Part shown: in pieces, positions 3,018-63,148 of the stretch
Position numbering within the stretch: position 1 is the first letter of the stretch
How the letters are laid out: every line of letters begins with the position of its first letter
Source of the DNA: a virus
Taxonomy: Duplodnaviria; Caudoviricetes
DNA: 64,000 nt
Strand: one strand, 5' to 3'
IMG/VR virus record: IMGVR_UViG_2799112420_000002
Span: 1,598-65,597 of that record
Translations under genes and position numbers: made by a program
The notes under the pieces: generated by a model
What the model saw: only the letters and a program-made list of their open reading frames with translations
What the model was told of the DNA's origin: nothing
Databases searched by the model: none

Positions 3018-3224
3018 ATGATCAATGCGCGGGAAATCCGGAAGCAGAGAGGGCTGAAGCAGTGCGAGCTCGCTCGCATGGTAGGTCTTGAGCAGGGCAG
3101 TCTTTCTGACATCGAAAACGAGAAGAAAAATCCGAGCTTCGATGTTCTGATTCGTCTGGCCCTGGCGCTCGATTGCTCCCTGGATGAGCTTGTGGATGTG
3201 AAGTCACATCCCGCTGCTTCCTAA
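3018..3224 (+). CDS. Cro-like HTH regulator
   Basis: 68-aa Xre HTH (LKQCELARMVGLEQGSLSDIEN). Confidence 0.85.
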   Translation: MINAREIRKQRGLKQCELARMVGLEQGSLSDIENEKKNPSFDVLIRLALALDCSLDELVDVKSHPAAS

Positions 3225-3254
3225 TTAAAAATACGACAAAAAGAGGGTATCAAA

Positions 3255-3713
3255 ATGGCTGTATTTTCAGGAATGGACCTGCGCAACTGGCGAAATTCGA
3301 AGAATATCAGCGCAGAAGAGCTGGGGATGCGGATAGGCTACGATGCCTCGACGATCTACCGCATTGAAAAAGAAGTGCAGACGCCGGGCCCCAAGGAAAT
3401 GATGCTGATCTGCGACGCGCTCGGAGACAGATCCAAGTGGGATGCCTGGATGCGGACCGTTTATCCGGAAAGCTACGGAAGAATGGTCCCGGAGCCGGTT
3501 CCTTACGGACTGGAAGGATCCATCCTGACGTTGAAAAGCGAGATGAAGGATCTGAAAGGCCTGATGCAGGAAACGATCCGGGACGGCGCGGACGGAAAGA
3601 TTGACAGCGTCATGTTGCGGGAGAAGCTGCTGAAGGAGCTGACAGAGCTCATGAGCGCGGCCCAGGGCATGATCCAGCTGCTGACGGAAAGGAGCGGTGG
3701 AAATGGCGCTTAG
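3255..3713 (+). CDS. Xre-HTH phage regulatory protein with helical C-terminal domain
   Basis: N-terminal HTH (SAEELGMRIGYDASTIYRIEK); C-terminus contains DGKID. Confidence 0.7.
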   Translation: MAVFSGMDLRNWRNSKNISAEELGMRIGYDASTIYRIEKEVQTPGPKEMMLICDALGDRSKWDAWMRTVYPESYGRMVPEPVPYGLEGSILTLKSEMKDLKGLMQETIRDGADGKIDSVMLREKLLKELTELMSAAQGMIQLLTERSGGNGA

Positions 3714-3954
3714 AAAGCTGTACTTCGTGGATGACGTCGTTGAGAGGTACCGCTGCGGATCCAAGGATACAGCCAGGCGGTACATGCGGCAGATGGGCGC
3801 TAAAGGATGTCCGCTCTTCGTTACGGAGGAAATGATCACCGAATGGGAGGACAGCAAGCGGGAGAAAGAGGTAGAAGCTCCAACTCCGAAGAAACGCAAG
3901 CGCCGCAAGCTGCTTCCGAGCGAGATGATAATCCCCGGCCGGAAGGTTGGGTAA
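3697..3954 (+). CDS. Small basic protein, excisionase/HTH-like
   Basis: 85 aa; winged-HTH-like N-terminus, Lys/Arg-rich tail, early-operon position. Confidence 0.45.
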   Translation: MEMALRKLYFVDDVVERYRCGSKDTARRYMRQMGAKGCPLFVTEEMITEWEDSKREKEVEAPTPKKRKRRKLLPSEMIIPGRKVG

Positions 3955-3975
3955 TTGAATAAGGAGGGTATCAAG

Positions 3976-4281
3976 ATGGGCTACGTGATTGAGAAGGGCA
4001 CGATCCAGTGGGCACGGAAGCGGGTCCAGCAGCTGCAGGAAGCCAGGCTGGAAATTGGAAACGCGGTCGACAGAGCGGAAAGCATTCCGACGGATCTGAG
4101 AGGCGGGGCGCTGCTGATGGATGATCAGCCGGACTCCGACGTGATGCGTTCATTCGCGGATGACTACGATAAGCTGAACAAACAGCTGCAGAAGGCGTTC
4201 TCCGGAATGGAAAAGGATCTGAAAGCGCTCCGGACCGGAATCCGGAAGTACGAGGAGGCCAGTCATGACTATGATTCCTGA
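3976..4281 (+). CDS. Hypothetical coiled-coil protein
   Basis: Strong RBS before ATG at 3976. Confidence 0.6.
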   Translation: MGYVIEKGTIQWARKRVQQLQEARLEIGNAVDRAESIPTDLRGGALLMDDQPDSDVMRSFADDYDKLNKQLQKAFSGMEKDLKALRTGIRKYEEASHDYDS

Positions 4282-4477
4282 CGCGCCATGGATCCGGGAT
4301 GCGGAACTGAACGGAGTTCCCGCGGACGATCCGATCATCTGCCCCTGCTGTGGGGCCGAAGCTGAGAGGTTTTTCTTCTACAACGGCGGGACTGACATTA
4401 TCGGATGCGACAGCTGCATCGAAAGCAAGGACGCATGGGAAGTAGAGATTGAAAAGGAGGACCGTGACTATGACTAA
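4265..4477 (+). CDS. Small CxxC zinc-ribbon protein
   Basis: CPCCG and CDSC motifs; overlaps its neighbours in operon fashion. Confidence 0.65.
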   Translation: MTMIPDAPWIRDAELNGVPADDPIICPCCGAEAERFFFYNGGTDIIGCDSCIESKDAWEVEIEKEDRDYD

Positions 4478-4643
4478 CGTTGGACGCTACTGGGACTGCC
4501 CGGCACACATCAAGATCCGCGGGAACCACAGGACATTCCGTCAGTGGTTGCTCCGGAAGTTCTTCCGGCCGGTGGAATATCCGGATCTTCTGATGATCAG
4601 TGATTATCATCCTGCCTACTATCCGTCCGGATATAAAAAGTGA
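4470..4643 (+). CDS. Hypothetical protein
   Basis: AAGGAGG RBS precedes ATG at 4470. Confidence 0.5.
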   Translation: MTNVGRYWDCPAHIKIRGNHRTFRQWLLRKFFRPVEYPDLLMISDYHPAYYPSGYKK

Positions 4644-4749
4644 CCTCCGGAGCGGGCACTCCGGAGATCGAGGTCAATCGAGGGTATCAATTGGACCAAG
4701 GTTATTATAACCGGTTTCCCGGTTAAAAACAAGAAGGAGGGTATCAAAA

Positions 4750-7281: not shown

Positions 7282-7822
7282 AGACTTCGACGGCCGCCAG
7301 ATCATCTCTGTTGCTGTCCAGGCTGACTTCCGGGAAGAGTACGACGATCTCAAGGATGGGAAAGTGACCGTCGTTATCAAGAAATACCGAAAAGGCCGAA
7401 GCCTCGATGCGAACGCAATGGCGTGGAGTCTCATAAACCAGATCGCAGCCAAACTGCAGGAAAAGGAGCCGAGGCACGGATGGACTCCGGAGGAAGTGTA
7501 TCGGACGGCAATAAGGGACGTCGCAGGAGCTTGTACAGTGCACTGCGTTCCGGATGATCAGATCCAGCAGTTTATAGAGGACTGGCAAAGCCTGGGAATA
7601 GGATTCCAGGTCGAAACATTTCCCAGCCGGATTGATGGCTGCACGAACGCAAAATTCTGGAAGGGATCCCACCTGTACGACACGCAGCAAATGTCTACAC
7701 TAATCAACATTCTTATCCAGGAGGCCGAGCAGCAGGGTATACATACGATCACAGACAAGGAGATCCAGAAAAAGCTCGAAGGGTGGCAGAAGGCGTATGA
7801 CAAGAAGCATTCTCCAGGATGA
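7241..7822 (+). CDS. NinB/Orf-like recombination protein
   Basis: RSLDANAMAW and YDTQQMSTLI..LIQEAEQQGI patterns. Confidence 0.6.
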   Translation: MQQAMIGELKGLSKDFDGRQIISVAVQADFREEYDDLKDGKVTVVIKKYRKGRSLDANAMAWSLINQIAAKLQEKEPRHGWTPEEVYRTAIRDVAGACTVHCVPDDQIQQFIEDWQSLGIGFQVETFPSRIDGCTNAKFWKGSHLYDTQQMSTLINILIQEAEQQGIHTITDKEIQKKLEGWQKAYDKKHSPG

Positions 7823-8075
7823 AAAAGTCTGCTACCTGTGTCCCAGGTCCTTTGGGCTTGAAAAGCATCACATTCTATCAGGGGTGGCCAACAGAAGGCT
7901 GTCTGAAAAGTACGGTCTCTGGGTCTACCTCTGCCAGGAACATCACACAGGAAAGAAGGGAGCGCAGTATGAGAAAGATCTGAACCGGTTGCTGAAGCAG
8001 CAAGCACAGATAGCGTTTGAAGCCATTCACGGTCACGATCTGTGGATGAAGGTTTTTCGAAAAAACTATTTATGA
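7797..8075 (+). CDS. Small HNH-like Zn-binding phage protein
   Basis: CYLC...HHI...VYLC.EHH. Confidence 0.6.
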   Translation: MTRSILQDEKVCYLCPRSFGLEKHHILSGVANRRLSEKYGLWVYLCQEHHTGKKGAQYEKDLNRLLKQQAQIAFEAIHGHDLWMKVFRKNYL

Positions 8076-8090
8076 AGAGAGGGTATCAAA

Positions 8091-8741
8091 ATGGAAAAGA
8101 AGATTCTGAAGGTCCGCGTCACGATGTTCGAAGAGATCCTTGGAACCGCAAGCGCAAATCCGGAAATCCACGAGGAGTTTATCGCCAGTAAAGCGCCGGA
8201 CGCTCCCAGCCGGGAGGAAGAGGTCGCCGCGATCGGCGCGGAGGAAGTGTTCGAGAAGGGCATGACGGTGTTCCCGCGGGGCGCGGATGGAAAGCCCATC
8301 GCCTGGGATTATCAATGGAAAGGTTTCTTCAAGGACGCCTGTGCGGCTCTGCGGAAGGTGCCGAAGAGCGAGTGCGGAAAGATCAAAGCCTATAAAAAAG
8401 AGATCGATGGCTTAATTTTTCCGGAACCCAGGATGATTCCGATCAAGTTTGACGGCGAAATTGGCATCTGCCAGCGTCCTCTGCGCGGCCAGACGGCCCA
8501 GGGCGAGCGGATCGCGCTGGCGAGCTCTGAGAGCATTCCCGCGGGCGCTACGATGGAGTTCACAATCAAGCTGCTTCTCCCGGATCACGAGAAGGCCGTT
8601 CTTGAAATGCTGGACTATGGTCAGCTGCGTGGATTTGGTCAGTGGAGAAACAGCGGGAAAGGCCGTTTCTGGTTTGAGGCATGGGATGAAAACGGAAAGC
8701 TGATCTCCAGCAATCTTCCCGCTGATGAAGCCGCTTCGTAA
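8091..8741 (+). CDS. Stand-alone Cas7/RAMP-like protein
   Basis: N-terminal beta strand KVRVTMFEEILGT, RAMP-type helix P.AWDYQWKGFFKDAC, and C-terminal glycine loop GQLRGFGQWRNSGKGRF. No other cas gene in the window. Confidence 0.75.
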   Translation: MEKKILKVRVTMFEEILGTASANPEIHEEFIASKAPDAPSREEEVAAIGAEEVFEKGMTVFPRGADGKPIAWDYQWKGFFKDACAALRKVPKSECGKIKAYKKEIDGLIFPEPRMIPIKFDGEIGICQRPLRGQTAQGERIALASSESIPAGATMEFTIKLLLPDHEKAVLEMLDYGQLRGFGQWRNSGKGRFWFEAWDENGKLISSNLPADEAAS

Positions 8742-8763
8742 CGGACAAGCTCGGCTTCCTTTT

Positions 8764-9330
8764 GAAGGGCATGGGAGCGGCACGGACGAGTTCCGAGCTG
8801 CGGTGGCAGAGTACAGAGCAGTCAGCCCAGCGCAGATAGGCCGGGAAGGGAGCTGCTGAGGCACGGAAGCGAAGCAAACGGAGATGCGGCGGCACAGCGC
8901 CGGATCGAAGGGCCGGGATTCGCACAGCAGCGGAATGGAAAAGATCAGGAATGGACAGCACCGGCATGGAAGCGCAGGGCAGGGATCAGCAATGGATGAG
9001 CGGGGCCTATCATCGCAAAGCACCGGAAGAGTGAGGAGAGGCATAGTACCGGATGAAAAGGAAGAGGAGAGAACCGCATAGAGCTGCACGGGGCGACGAG
9101 AAGCTGGGTATTGAAAAGAAAAGGAGATGCGATGAGCGGACCAGCGTGGGAATAGCTCAGTTGGGATACGCTGGGAATCGAAAAGATCAGTTGCGGAAAA
9201 GCGTGGAAGGGCATCGTGCGGCATAGGAGTGCTGTGAACAGAAATGGAAAGGAGAGGCGGCTCAAAGACATGAGACGAAACGGATCTGCATGGTGCAGAA
9301 AGGATGCGCTGGGTAAAGCGTAGGTTAATG
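8764..9330 (+). repeat. Non-coding pentamer-periodic array, (G-N-W-N-N)n, putative guide-RNA array
   Basis: G every 5 nt in long runs, e.g. 8825-8865 (9 consecutive), 8892-8937 (10), 9150-9195 (10), 9196-9256 (13), 9283-9323 (9). Phase slips are mostly +1 at GG doublets. Confidence 0.85.
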
Positions 9331-9355
9331 GAAATAATACTGTAGGAGTAGGCCA

Positions 9356-10072
9356 ATGAAAGAGTGGTTCAAAGCTCAGAAGAGTTGGGGTGCAGCGATT
9401 CAGAGCCTTTCCGATGTCGAAGTGGGACGTCTGATGAAAGCAGTGTGGCATTACGCTACTACTGGTGAGCAGAGGGATCTTTCTGGAGGAGAAAAGGTGA
9501 TCTTCGCTTTAATCACAATGGAGCTGAGCCAAAATGAGGCTAAGGATGCTTTGATATCAAAGAAGCGATCGGAGGCTGGTTCACTCGGAGGAAAACAACG
9601 GGTAGCAAATGCAAGCAAATGCTATCAAATTCAAGCAAATGCTACTTTTGCTAAGCAAAATGTAGCAAAAGAATCAAATGCTTCTAATAAAGAAGTAGTA
9701 GTAGAAGTAGTAGAAGACGATAGTAGTTTATTTATCAACAGTGAAGAAGCAGGGATTATACGTAGTGAACATGAGAGAGTACTTGATGCTGCAGAAATAG
9801 CTGGGTTTGATAGAACAGACTACGTAAGGAGTAAGCTGATCGACCTGTATGCAGACAATGGCCTGGAAAAGATGCTGAGCGCTATAGAAGCATGCGCGGA
9901 GCACGGAGCTCCGACCGTCGCGTATCTCAAGGGCGTCCTCAAAGGAGGCCCCAGGAAGCAGAGCCAGAACAAGGCTGTTCCTGCGCAGCAGTACGCGCAG
10001 CGAGACTACTCCGGAGCTGACGAAGAGGCCATGAAGCGGATGCTGGAAATGGCTGAGGAAAACCGCGCATGA
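9356..10072 (+). CDS. Replication initiator (DUF6291-like N-terminus, DnaD-like C-terminus)
   Basis: SLSDVEVGRLMKAVWHYA N-domain; C-domain ...AYLKGVLK; internal iterons. Confidence 0.8.
   Translation: MKEWFKAQKSWGAAIQSLSDVEVGRLMKAVWHYATTGEQRDLSGGEKVIFALITMELSQNEAKDALISKKRSEAGSLGGKQRVANASKCYQIQANATFAKQNVAKESNASNKEVVVEVVEDDSSLFINSEEAGIIRSEHERVLDAAEIAGFDRTDYVRSKLIDLYADNGLEKMLSAIEACAEHGAPTVAYLKGVLKGGPRKQSQNKAVPAQQYAQRDYSGADEEAMKRMLEMAEENRA
9601..9685. repeat. Iterons inside the initiator gene (likely phage ori)
   Basis: AGCAAATGC-like units at 10-bp spacing, plus an inverted TTTTGCT, in AT-rich context. Confidence 0.7.
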
Positions 10073-62848: not shown

Positions 62849-63148
62849 ATGTACGAGCTGGATTATGTTTTCGACGGAGATTTTGAGAGGCCGGTTTACA
62901 GGAAAAAGTTGGTCCGGGCGACTGAGCGCAGCGACATGTACAAGATTGAGCATGCGCTCCGGATGAAGTGCAGCGCAGAGTCCACCAAGTTGTTCCGGCT
63001 CGCCTGGAAGATGGTCCGGCATGGATGCTCCGCTGAGAGCATCGAGAAGTGCCGCAACGAGGCCCGTGCGCTGCATGACGTTGGCGGCATTAACCTCTGG
63101 GAGGTCCTGAATCCCTTCGTTGTCTGGGAATATGCTTTCAAATGCTGA
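62849..63148 (+). CDS. Hypothetical protein
   Basis: Hairpin plus AAAGGA RBS upstream. Confidence 0.55.
   Translation: MYELDYVFDGDFERPVYRKKLVRATERSDMYKIEHALRMKCSAESTKLFRLAWKMVRHGCSAESIEKCRNEARALHDVGGINLWEVLNPFVVWEYAFKC

What the first reader, a model, noticed from the sequence alone, without database searches (positions are those of the whole stretch)
8091..9355. Solo Cas7/RAMP-like gene plus a pentamer-periodic RNA array: candidate non-CRISPR RNA-guided system in a prophage
Seen: a 216-aa protein with RAMP/Cas7 hallmarks (first strand KVRVTMFEEILGT, helix YQWKGFFKDAC matching the RAMP 'S.lKG.lR' position, terminal glycine loop GFGQWRNSGKGRF). It is followed directly by ~600 nt with no credible sense-strand gene, in which G recurs every 5 nt. 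No cas1/2/3/5/6/8/10 gene and no repeat-spacer array occurs in the window. The pair sits in the early operon between the recombination genes and the replication initiator. Established: Cas7-family proteins polymerise along RNA with a fixed nucleotide footprint per subunit (6 nt in type I/III CRISPR complexes). Inference: the array is an RNA scaffold with one subunit per pentamer, where the constant G (and W at position 3) anchors the protein and the variable positions encode a gapped target. Possible roles are silencing competing phages/MGEs or host defence genes, or acting as an anti-CRISPR decoy. From memory, and not verifiable here, a recent report described phage Cas7-related 'VIPR' systems with GGY/NN pentamer RNAs. 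If this locus is related, it is a divergent variant, since its consensus is G-N-W-N-N rather than GGY.
Basis: partly seen in the sequence, partly recalled or inferred. Interest (0 to 1): 0.96.

Follow-up and report, generated by a model that had tools for sequence, protein, structure and literature searches.

The report
Prophage VIPR guide-RNA system
A prophage early gene encodes a small CRISPR-like (RAMP/Cas7-fold) protein, and the 590 bases after it are an array of five-base guide-RNA repeats, so this is a member of the phage "VIPR" RNA-guided DNA-silencing systems described in 2026 preprints rather than a new kind of system.

Summary
Window 8091-8741 (+) encodes a 216-aa protein with no Pfam or PHROG match. 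Its model (pLDDT 92) matches only CRISPR RAMPs (Csm3 Z 13.4; Foldseek E 5e-9 to type VII Cas7).

The next ~590 nt (8745-9323) are non-coding. They show the only strong 5-nt G periodicity in the window and in the 3.2-Mb genome (z 8.6).

The tract holds about 115 pentamers of consensus Y-N-N-N-G. They fall into about 17 modules of mostly 5-8 units, separated by one extra G.

All 24 related loci with enough flank carry same-strand arrays beside the gene. The arrays turn over much faster than the gene; G is conserved and the three N positions vary.

The family aligns full-length with the validated SUSP1 Vipr family only at profile-profile level (72%, E 3e-5). The G-loop W-R that holds G2/Y3 in SUSP1 is kept; both G1 contacts are replaced.

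YNNNG repeats are listed in that paper. No target or decoding rule could be established. The scan has met this kind before in other genomes.

The parts
8091..8741 (+). vipr-like gene: 216-aa minimal single-RRM RAMP, with G-loop GFGQWRNSGKGRF at residues 181-193, a beta-hairpin thumb at about 125-149, and a two-helix insert at 24-46
   Evidence: The ORF is. The AF2 model has pLDDT 91.9 and pTM 0.87. Foldseek top hits are all Cas7/Csm3/Cmr4 (E 5e-9). VIA gives Z 13.4 to Csm3 6ae2_B, and ranks 1-32 are all CRISPR RAMPs. The family profile hits type VII Cas7 (E 5.6e-6) and Csm4 (E 1e-3) over the G-loop. hhalign against the SUSP1 Vipr family gives 72%, E 3.3e-5, over 180 columns. The gene is single-copy in the genome.
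8745..9323 (+). vrRNA-type array of about 115 pentamers, consensus Y-N-N-N-G. Modules start at 8745, 8776, 8807, 8826, 8862, 8893, 8934, 8965, 8996, 9027, 9094, 9125, 9151, 9197, 9248 and 9284, with 3-13 pentamers each (mostly 6). Nearly all are separated by a single extra G.
   Evidence: The HMM parses are (the parse starts at 8729, inside the last codons of the gene; the first pentamers are doubtful). There is no Rfam match. The RNA shows no excess folding (z -0.74). No promoter- or terminator-like site lies between the gene and the array. Related arrays vary at P2-P4 (18-21%), less at P1 (11%), and little at G (4%).
9324..9355 (+). short linker carrying the ribosome-binding site of the next gene (DUF6291 replication-organiser-like, 9356-10072); not part of the array
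   Evidence: Sequence. DUF6291 match. The HMM array ends at 9323.
7797..8075 (+). 92-aa Cys/His protein directly upstream (phrog_7566). It was considered as a VIPR accessory gene (vap) but probably belongs to the NinB recombination module.
   Evidence: phrog_7566 matches at E 6e-28, with a weak HNH phrog_589 match at E 0.0055. The gene is found in only about 11 of 26 related loci. It follows NinB closely in most of these loci (overlapping it in several) and is not always next to vipr.

Best explanation
This is a VIPR (Viral Interference Programmable Repeat) system carried in the early operon of an integrated temperate phage.

The 216-aa protein is a Vipr-type minimal RAMP. The intergenic tract is its guide-RNA array.

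Proposed mechanism: the array is read through from the early operon. One protomer binds each pentamer and sequesters the invariant G and the following pyrimidine-like base, using the conserved G-loop W185 and R186 and thumb arginines. The variable bases are presented to pair with DNA of a competing phage or mobile element, and the filament blocks transcription there.

Shown here: the predicted RAMP fold; gene-array linkage across distant relatives; same-strand orientation; a hypervariable array with a fixed G; prophage context without cas genes.

Inferred from the SUSP1 work: transcription, RNP formation, DNA targeting and silencing.

Specific to this clade: only one G is fixed, three positions vary, and one extra G follows every 5-8 pentamers. 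That length is close to one helical turn of the SUSP1 filament (5-6 subunits). The extra G may mark guide boundaries or a per-turn register shift.
For: Fold.

Remote full-length homology to validated Vipr. SUSP1 Vipr was identified at KT454805 28474-29061 with the published residues H17, R138 and D177-W178-R179.

G-loop alignment: GVGDWRPRFGRF in SUSP1 against GFGQWRNSGKGRF here. The W and R that contact G2/Y3 are kept. H17 becomes T19 and D177 becomes Q184, which are the G1 contacts. This matches loss of the first G in the repeat.

Array linkage: all 24 related loci with enough flank, at 43-92% protein identity, carry arrays. Hydrogenobaculum phage 1, at 29% identity, also has a periodic tract next to its homologue.

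Array turnover: genes at 80-87% nt identity share no modules; at 99.7% gene identity 18 of 23 modules are shared.

Substitutions by phase.

Prophage context: integrase, RecT, NinB, SSB, portal, protease and tape measure.

Distribution: the gene is absent from 30 related genomes. There is no Cas1 or Pfam RAMP gene in the assembly.

The paper lists YNNNG/NNNNG repeats and 'staggered' arrays.
Against: Profile-to-sequence searches between this family and the SUSP1 family are not significant in either direction. The family profile does not retrieve PDB 36pp (SUSP1 Vipr), although it does retrieve type VII Cas7.

There is no conserved 3' tail, pseudoknot or ribozyme, and no universal accessory gene.

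No target was found under the SUSP1 one-base-skip rule or nine other rules in the own genome, in 350 kb of related phage DNA, in 401 family genomes, in IMG/VR or in JGI metagenomes.

Expression was not tested.
Confidence: 0.82

Rival explanations
1. It is a separate solo-RAMP lineage that also coats a pentamer RNA but does something other than programmable DNA silencing. Possibilities include an RNA-targeting filament, a decoy that soaks up host type III/VII CRISPR components, or a regulator of the phage's own early genes.
For: The family profile matches type VII Cas7 and Csm4 G-loops (E 5.6e-6 and 1e-3) better than it matches SUSP1 Vipr by the same method. The G-loop has the canonical RAMP length. 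No DNA target was found.
Against: The full-length hhalign match to the Vipr family, the shared helical insert after strand 1, the hypervariable N positions with a fixed G and the YNNNG form listed in the VIPR paper all fit VIPR. The host assembly has no Cas1 or RAMP gene to act as a decoy target. No match was found in the own genome, so self-regulation is unlikely.
Confidence: 0.1
2. The tract is a DNA-level element such as a replication origin, iteron field or recombination hotspot for the neighbouring replication and recombination genes, and its position next to the RAMP gene is incidental.
For: It lies between the recombination genes and the DUF6291 replication-organiser-like gene. No promoter of its own was detected.
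Against: The tract follows the RAMP gene, not the replication gene, in loci with different neighbours. It sits upstream in L003 and on both sides in L019/L020. It is strand-specific and purine-rich. Its sequence is hypervariable apart from the periodic G, which is unlike iterons.
Confidence: 0.04
3. The tract is protein-coding, for example the 314-aa antisense ORF at 8412-9356.
For: A long open frame exists on the minus strand.
Against: Period-5 power dominates period-3 power. There is no Pfam match. The ORF overlaps the vipr gene and is open only because the plus strand is purine-rich. Related arrays are not alignable.
Confidence: 0.01

Closest known systems
VIPR systems (Vipr protein plus vrRNA), bioRxiv 10.64898/2026.04.26.720920 and 10.64898/2026.04.26.720927. 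The studied examples are type II, from Escherichia phage SUSP1 and a Pseudomonas fulva prophage; PDB 36pp is listed as 'SUSP1 Vipr protein'.
   Same: A phage-encoded protein of about 20 kDa with a single-RRM RAMP fold, a G-loop and a thumb. No cas genes. A flanking non-coding array of 5-nt repeats with fixed G and hypervariable N. The G-loop W-R pair is conserved. Gene and array lie on the same strand. No self-target was found.
   Different: The repeat is YNNNG, not YNNGG: three variable positions instead of two, and both G1-contact residues are replaced. There is no 3' tail or pseudoknot. The array is continuous over about 590 nt, with a one-base G slip every 5-8 repeats. SUSP1 vrRNAs show no such slip (lags 25/30 positive, lags 26/31 near zero). 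No universal vap gene was found. Sequence similarity is detectable only profile to profile.
CRISPR Cas7-family RAMPs of type III and type VII (Csm3, Cmr4, type VII Cas7)
   Same: These are the best structural matches (Z 12-13.4; Foldseek E 5e-9). They share the G-loop pattern G-h-G-x5-G-x-G-R-F, and they oligomerise along a guide RNA with a thumb that flips bases.
   Different: Here there is no CRISPR array, no Cas1, Cas10, Cas5, Cas6 or Cas14 partner, and no Pfam RAMPs match. The RNA period is 5 nt, not 6. The gene is in a prophage early operon.

Membership tests
VIPR system | Minimal single-RRM RAMP protein (~20 kDa) with G-loop and thumb | tested here: met
   216 aa. AF2 pLDDT 91.9. Ranks 1-32 of the VIA list are CRISPR RAMPs, Z up to 13.4. 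Foldseek E 5e-9. The G-loop is at 181-193 and a beta-hairpin at 125-149.
VIPR system | Sequence homology to an experimentally validated Vipr (SUSP1) | tested here: inconclusive
   hhalign of family against family gives 72%, E 3.3e-5, over 180 columns; against the single SUSP1 protein it gives 75%, E 2.6e-5. hmmsearch is not significant in either direction. PDB 36pp is not retrieved by this family's profile.
VIPR system | Adjacent non-coding tandem pentamer array with conserved G and hypervariable N positions | tested here: met
   The array is present next to the gene in all 24 related loci with enough flank.
VIPR system | Canonical GGY/NN (YNNGG) repeat | tested here: not met
   In 3164 pooled pentamers, P5 is G, P1 is C50/T25/A21/G3, and P4 (the G1 position) is unconstrained. 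The form is YNNNG, which the paper's methods list as an alternative, so this excludes the canonical type II form, not VIPR.
VIPR system | Phage or prophage location, no cas genes or CRISPR array | tested here: met
   Integrase, portal, protease and tape measure in the window. No Cas1 or Pfam RAMP in the assembly. No CRISPR-like repeats on the contig.
VIPR system | Linked accessory gene (vap) | tested here: inconclusive
   Only the vipr gene and the array are shared by 20 loci. The upstream 92-aa gene tracks NinB rather than vipr.
VIPR system | vrRNA expressed, co-purifies with Vipr, programs DNA binding by a gapped code | not testable with these tools
   Needs small-RNA sequencing, pull-down and binding assays. 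Computational target searches under ten rules gave no enrichment.
VIPR system, type II architecture | Discrete ~100-nt vrRNAs of 9-16 repeats, each capped by a conserved structured 3' tail | tested here: not met
   No repeated tail, no Rfam match, no excess structure. The array is continuous with one-base slips.
CRISPR-Cas Cas7 (type III/VII) | Encoded with other cas genes next to a repeat-spacer array | tested here: not met
CRISPR-Cas Cas7 (type III/VII) | RAMP fold with G-loop | tested here: met
   There is no Pfam PF03787 match.

The most novel reading that the evidence does not exclude
In this YNNNG clade each repeat may read three contiguous target bases with no skipped base, and each 5-8-repeat module ending in the extra G may be a separate short guide aimed at ribosome-binding-site and start-codon regions of rival phages' early genes.

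The lead is one hit. Splicing P2-P4 of the module at 9248-9282 gives a 21-mer that matches 21 of 21 bases at L015:5598-5618. That site is the Shine-Dalgarno sequence plus ATG of a 72-aa gene. The gene is present in four related phages and absent from this prophage and its host.

Spliced modules are also enriched for GGAGG (18 against 6.6 +/- 2.4 in shuffles) and for ATG in the first two triplets.
Probability: 0.1. Interest if true: 0.7.

Novelty: new member of a known kind. Interest (0 to 1): 0.36.

Why it matters
VIPR is a months-old discovery, and only type II systems have been worked out in detail (small-RNA sequencing exists for types III and V).

This locus belongs to a very large clade of gut and rumen Clostridia phages: 6541 clusters at 90% identity and 1703 at 50%. 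Its repeats fix one G instead of two, leave three positions free, and carry a regular one-base slip.

If the decoding rule differs from the published one-base-skip code, the clade would widen the known grammar of non-contiguous RNA-guided DNA recognition. It would also offer an even simpler programmable binder: one protein, with no tail and no accessory gene.

As it stands, this is a solid annotation of a known kind of system.

Tried and rejected
1. Pfam and PHROG scans of the protein gave no match.

2. Rfam on 7500-10000 gave no match, so no hammerhead-interspersed array. TRF found nothing because the pentamers are too divergent.

3. Vap candidate: the 92-aa upstream gene was rejected as a dedicated partner.

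4. Codon test: stop codons in the P2-P4 triplets show only general TAG avoidance, so there is no in-frame codon signal.

5. Target searches:
- Exact gapped k-mers under 40 position/skip rules against 7 Mb of DNA gave no clear excess; the best were about 4 sd, unconvincing across 40 tests.
- For the 15 window modules against the own genome under 10 rules, real and shuffled modules scored the same.
- 325 modules against 350 kb of related phage DNA gave no general excess, apart from one perfect hit under the contiguous-triplet rule. That hit has p of about 0.007 for that rule alone, and about 0.07 after correcting for the ten rules.
- Under the SUSP1 rule, the 13-repeat module gave 0 hits in 401 family genomes with up to 3 mismatches and 0 in JGI metagenomes.
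- In IMG/VR, the 10-repeat module gave 0 hits. The 9-repeat module gave 6 hits (3 distinct sequences) that look like chance: the skipped base falls on codon position 1 of a tail protein in an unrelated AT-rich phage, and neighbouring modules do not extend the match.
- Two further modules spliced under the contiguous-triplet rule gave 0 hits in IMG/VR.

7. A structural comparison with SUSP1 Vipr itself was not possible. PDB 36pp is in the sequence copy, but no such entry appeared among the matches of the two fold searches run.

Full report
**Observation**

The ORF at 8091-8741 (+) encodes 216 aa. The following 614 nt, up to the next start codon at 9356, are purine-rich: G 38%, A 30%. G autocorrelation is 0.34 at lag 5, 0.22 at lag 10 and 0.18 at lag 15. 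Against 1000 dinucleotide-preserving shuffles this gives z = 8.6, and the shuffle maximum is 0.11. Of the 30 highest 150-nt windows of the 64-kb window, 23 lie in 8676-9226, where values reach 0.49; the seven outside reach at most 0.27. In the whole 3.2-Mb assembly it is the only strong tract. Period-5 power exceeds period-3 power in the tract, while flanking genes show the opposite. No ORF in the tract, including a 314-aa antisense frame that is open only because of the purine bias, matches Pfam.

**Anatomy of the tract**

An HMM trained on this and related tracts resolves pentamers with an almost invariant G at the last position.

Pooled over 3164 pentamers from 26 loci:
- P1: C 50%, T 25%, A 21%, G 3%.
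- P2: A 48%.
- P3: A 38%.
- P4: A 35%.
- P5: G.

The unit is therefore Y-N-N-N-G.

The pentamers come in runs of mostly 5-7 units. In eight loci the run-length counts were 4:18, 5:49, 6:38, 7:23 and 8:9. Runs are separated by one extra base, and in 146 of about 165 cases that base is G. This explains why G autocorrelation peaks move from lags 5k to 26/31/36 and then to 57/62/67 in every locus examined. The SUSP1 vrRNA region does not behave this way: lags 25 and 30 give 0.26 and 0.22, and lags 26 and 31 give about 0.

In the window the array runs 8745-9323, with about 115 pentamers in about 17 modules. It has no Rfam match, no repeated tail and no excess secondary structure (z -0.74). No promoter- or terminator-like site separates it from the gene. 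Read-through from the early operon is the simplest assumption, and it is an inference.

**The protein**

There is no Pfam or PHROG match. The family is very large and almost entirely metagenomic: 6541 clusters at 90% identity and 1703 at 50%. ESM Atlas neighbours are 88-98% viral.

A 65-sequence alignment gave an AlphaFold model with pLDDT 91.9. Foldseek against the PDB returns only Cas7-family chains at the top: type VII Cas7, Csm3, Cmr4 and Cas7-11, at E 5e-9 and above. An exhaustive VIA search gives Z 13.4 to Csm3, and ranks 1-32 are all CRISPR RAMPs. The family profile hits the G-loop of type VII Cas7 (E 5.6e-6) and of Csm4 (E 1e-3). The RAMP reading is therefore sound.

**Link to VIPR**

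I located the SUSP1 vipr gene at KT454805 28474-29061 (-). It carries the published residues and is flanked by GGTNN repeats.

hhalign of this family against a 36-sequence SUSP1-family alignment gives 72% probability, E 3.3e-5, over 180 columns spanning both proteins end to end. Against the single SUSP1 protein it gives 75%.

In that alignment the SUSP1 G-loop D177-W178-R179 corresponds to Q184-W185-R186 here, and H17 corresponds to T19. In the SUSP1 structure, W178 and R179 hold G2 and Y3, while H17 and D177 read G1. The retained and lost contacts therefore match the retained G-Y and the lost first G of the repeat. This is inference from an alignment.

Profile-to-sequence searches between the two families are not significant. 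This family's profile does not retrieve PDB 36pp ('SUSP1 Vipr protein'), which the SUSP1-family profile retrieves at E 5e-81. The relationship is remote, and I cannot assign one of the paper's seven types.

**Comparative evidence**

All 24 related loci with enough flank have same-strand arrays beside the gene. These span 43-92% protein identity and come from deer, yak, sheep and other gut or rumen samples. The array is usually immediately downstream. It lies upstream in L003. In the 73-kb phages L019 and L020 it lies on both sides and totals more than 600 pentamers. A 29%-identical homologue in Hydrogenobaculum phage 1 also has a 5-nt G-periodic tract downstream.

Arrays evolve much faster than the gene:

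| Gene nt identity | Array comparison |
|---|---|
| 80-87% | not alignable, no shared modules |
| 93.6% | 71% identical, 4 of 30 modules shared |
| 99.7% | 91% identical, 18 of 23 modules shared |

Substitutions between related arrays, by position:

| Position | Substitution rate |
|---|---|
| G (P5) | 4% |
| extra (slip) G | 7% |
| P1 | 11% |
| P2-P4 | 18-21% |

Only the gene and the array are common to all loci. The upstream 92-aa Cys/His protein (phrog_7566) tracks NinB rather than vipr.

**Context**

The window holds a complete-looking prophage: integrase at 377-1621, then DUF1351, RecT, a metallo-beta-lactamase-fold protein and NinB, then vipr and the array, then DUF6291, DUF1064, SSB and a sigma-like protein, and later portal, protease and tape measure. 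The vipr gene is single-copy in the genome. It was not found in 18 congeneric genomes or in 12 other genomes of the same order. The 88%-complete assembly has no Cas1 or Pfam RAMP gene.

**Targets**

I tried to recover the decoding rule as the paper did. No rule gave an excess of matches over shuffled modules in the own genome or in 350 kb of related phage DNA, and exact k-mers over the 7-Mb set that adds the own genome gave no clear excess either. This agrees with the paper's lack of self-targets but leaves the rule open. Searches with the SUSP1 rule in 401 family genomes, IMG/VR and JGI metagenomes found nothing credible.

There is one lead. Splicing P2-P4 of the module at 9248-9282 gives a 21-mer identical to the Shine-Dalgarno-plus-ATG region of a 72-aa gene in the related phage L015. 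That gene is present in L014, L015, L024 and L025 and is absent from this prophage and its host. Composition-matched decoys give a perfect hit in 1 of 150 sets. That is about 0.07 after correcting for the ten rules tried. Two further modules spliced the same way found nothing in IMG/VR. I treat this as unproven.

**Verdict**

The locus is a VIPR-type system with YNNNG repeats in slip-separated modules. The paper mentions YNNNG/NNNNG repeats and 'staggered arrays' whose vrRNAs overlap by one base. The latter may be this architecture, but the figure is not available to me.

Earlier reports of this scan reached the same family assignment on other genomes. My assignment rests on the tests above.

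Noticed in passing
window 9248-9282; L015:5598-5618: Taking positions 2-4 of each pentamer of this module gives a 21-mer with a perfect match to the ribosome-binding site and start codon of a 72-aa early gene in a related phage. That gene is absent from this prophage and its host. The match is borderline after multiple-testing correction.
   Followed up: partly
all arrays (window 8745-9323 and loci L001-L027): The first pentamer after each extra G has its own consensus, [C/A]-A-[A/T]-[A/G]-G. ATG at positions 2-4 is about three times more frequent in the first two pentamers of a module than later. This may be a processing or nucleation signal.
   Followed up: partly
L019:5795-11670 and L020:6086-11701: Two 73-kb IMG/VR phages carry more than 600 pentamers (about 3 kb) of array in four blocks on both sides of the vipr gene, far more than the other loci.
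   Followed up: no
L034 (Hydrogenobaculum phage 1, KP282676) 3128-3898 and 3826-4680: A 29%-identical homologue in a hot-spring Aquificota phage is also followed by a 5-nt G-periodic tract. The gene-array pair therefore spans very distant hosts.
   Followed up: partly
window 7797-8075: A 92-aa protein with CxxC...HH...N...CxxHH spacing (phrog_7566, weak HNH similarity) directly follows NinB in this window and follows it closely in most related phages that carry it. It is probably a small nuclease of the recombination module.
   Followed up: partly
window 62926-63126: A weak secondary G lag-5 signal (0.21-0.27) lies on the plus strand inside or opposite a 242-aa minus-strand ORF. It is too short for the HMM to call an array.
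   Followed up: no
window 8412-9356 (-): A 314-aa antisense ORF spans the array and the 3' end of vipr. It is an artefact of the purine-rich plus strand and could be miscalled as a gene by annotation pipelines.
   Followed up: yes
PDB sequence copy: Entry 36pp is labelled 'SUSP1 Vipr protein' (202 aa, 6 chains), so a VIPR structure is deposited. No 36pp chain appeared among the matches of either fold search run.
   Followed up: partly
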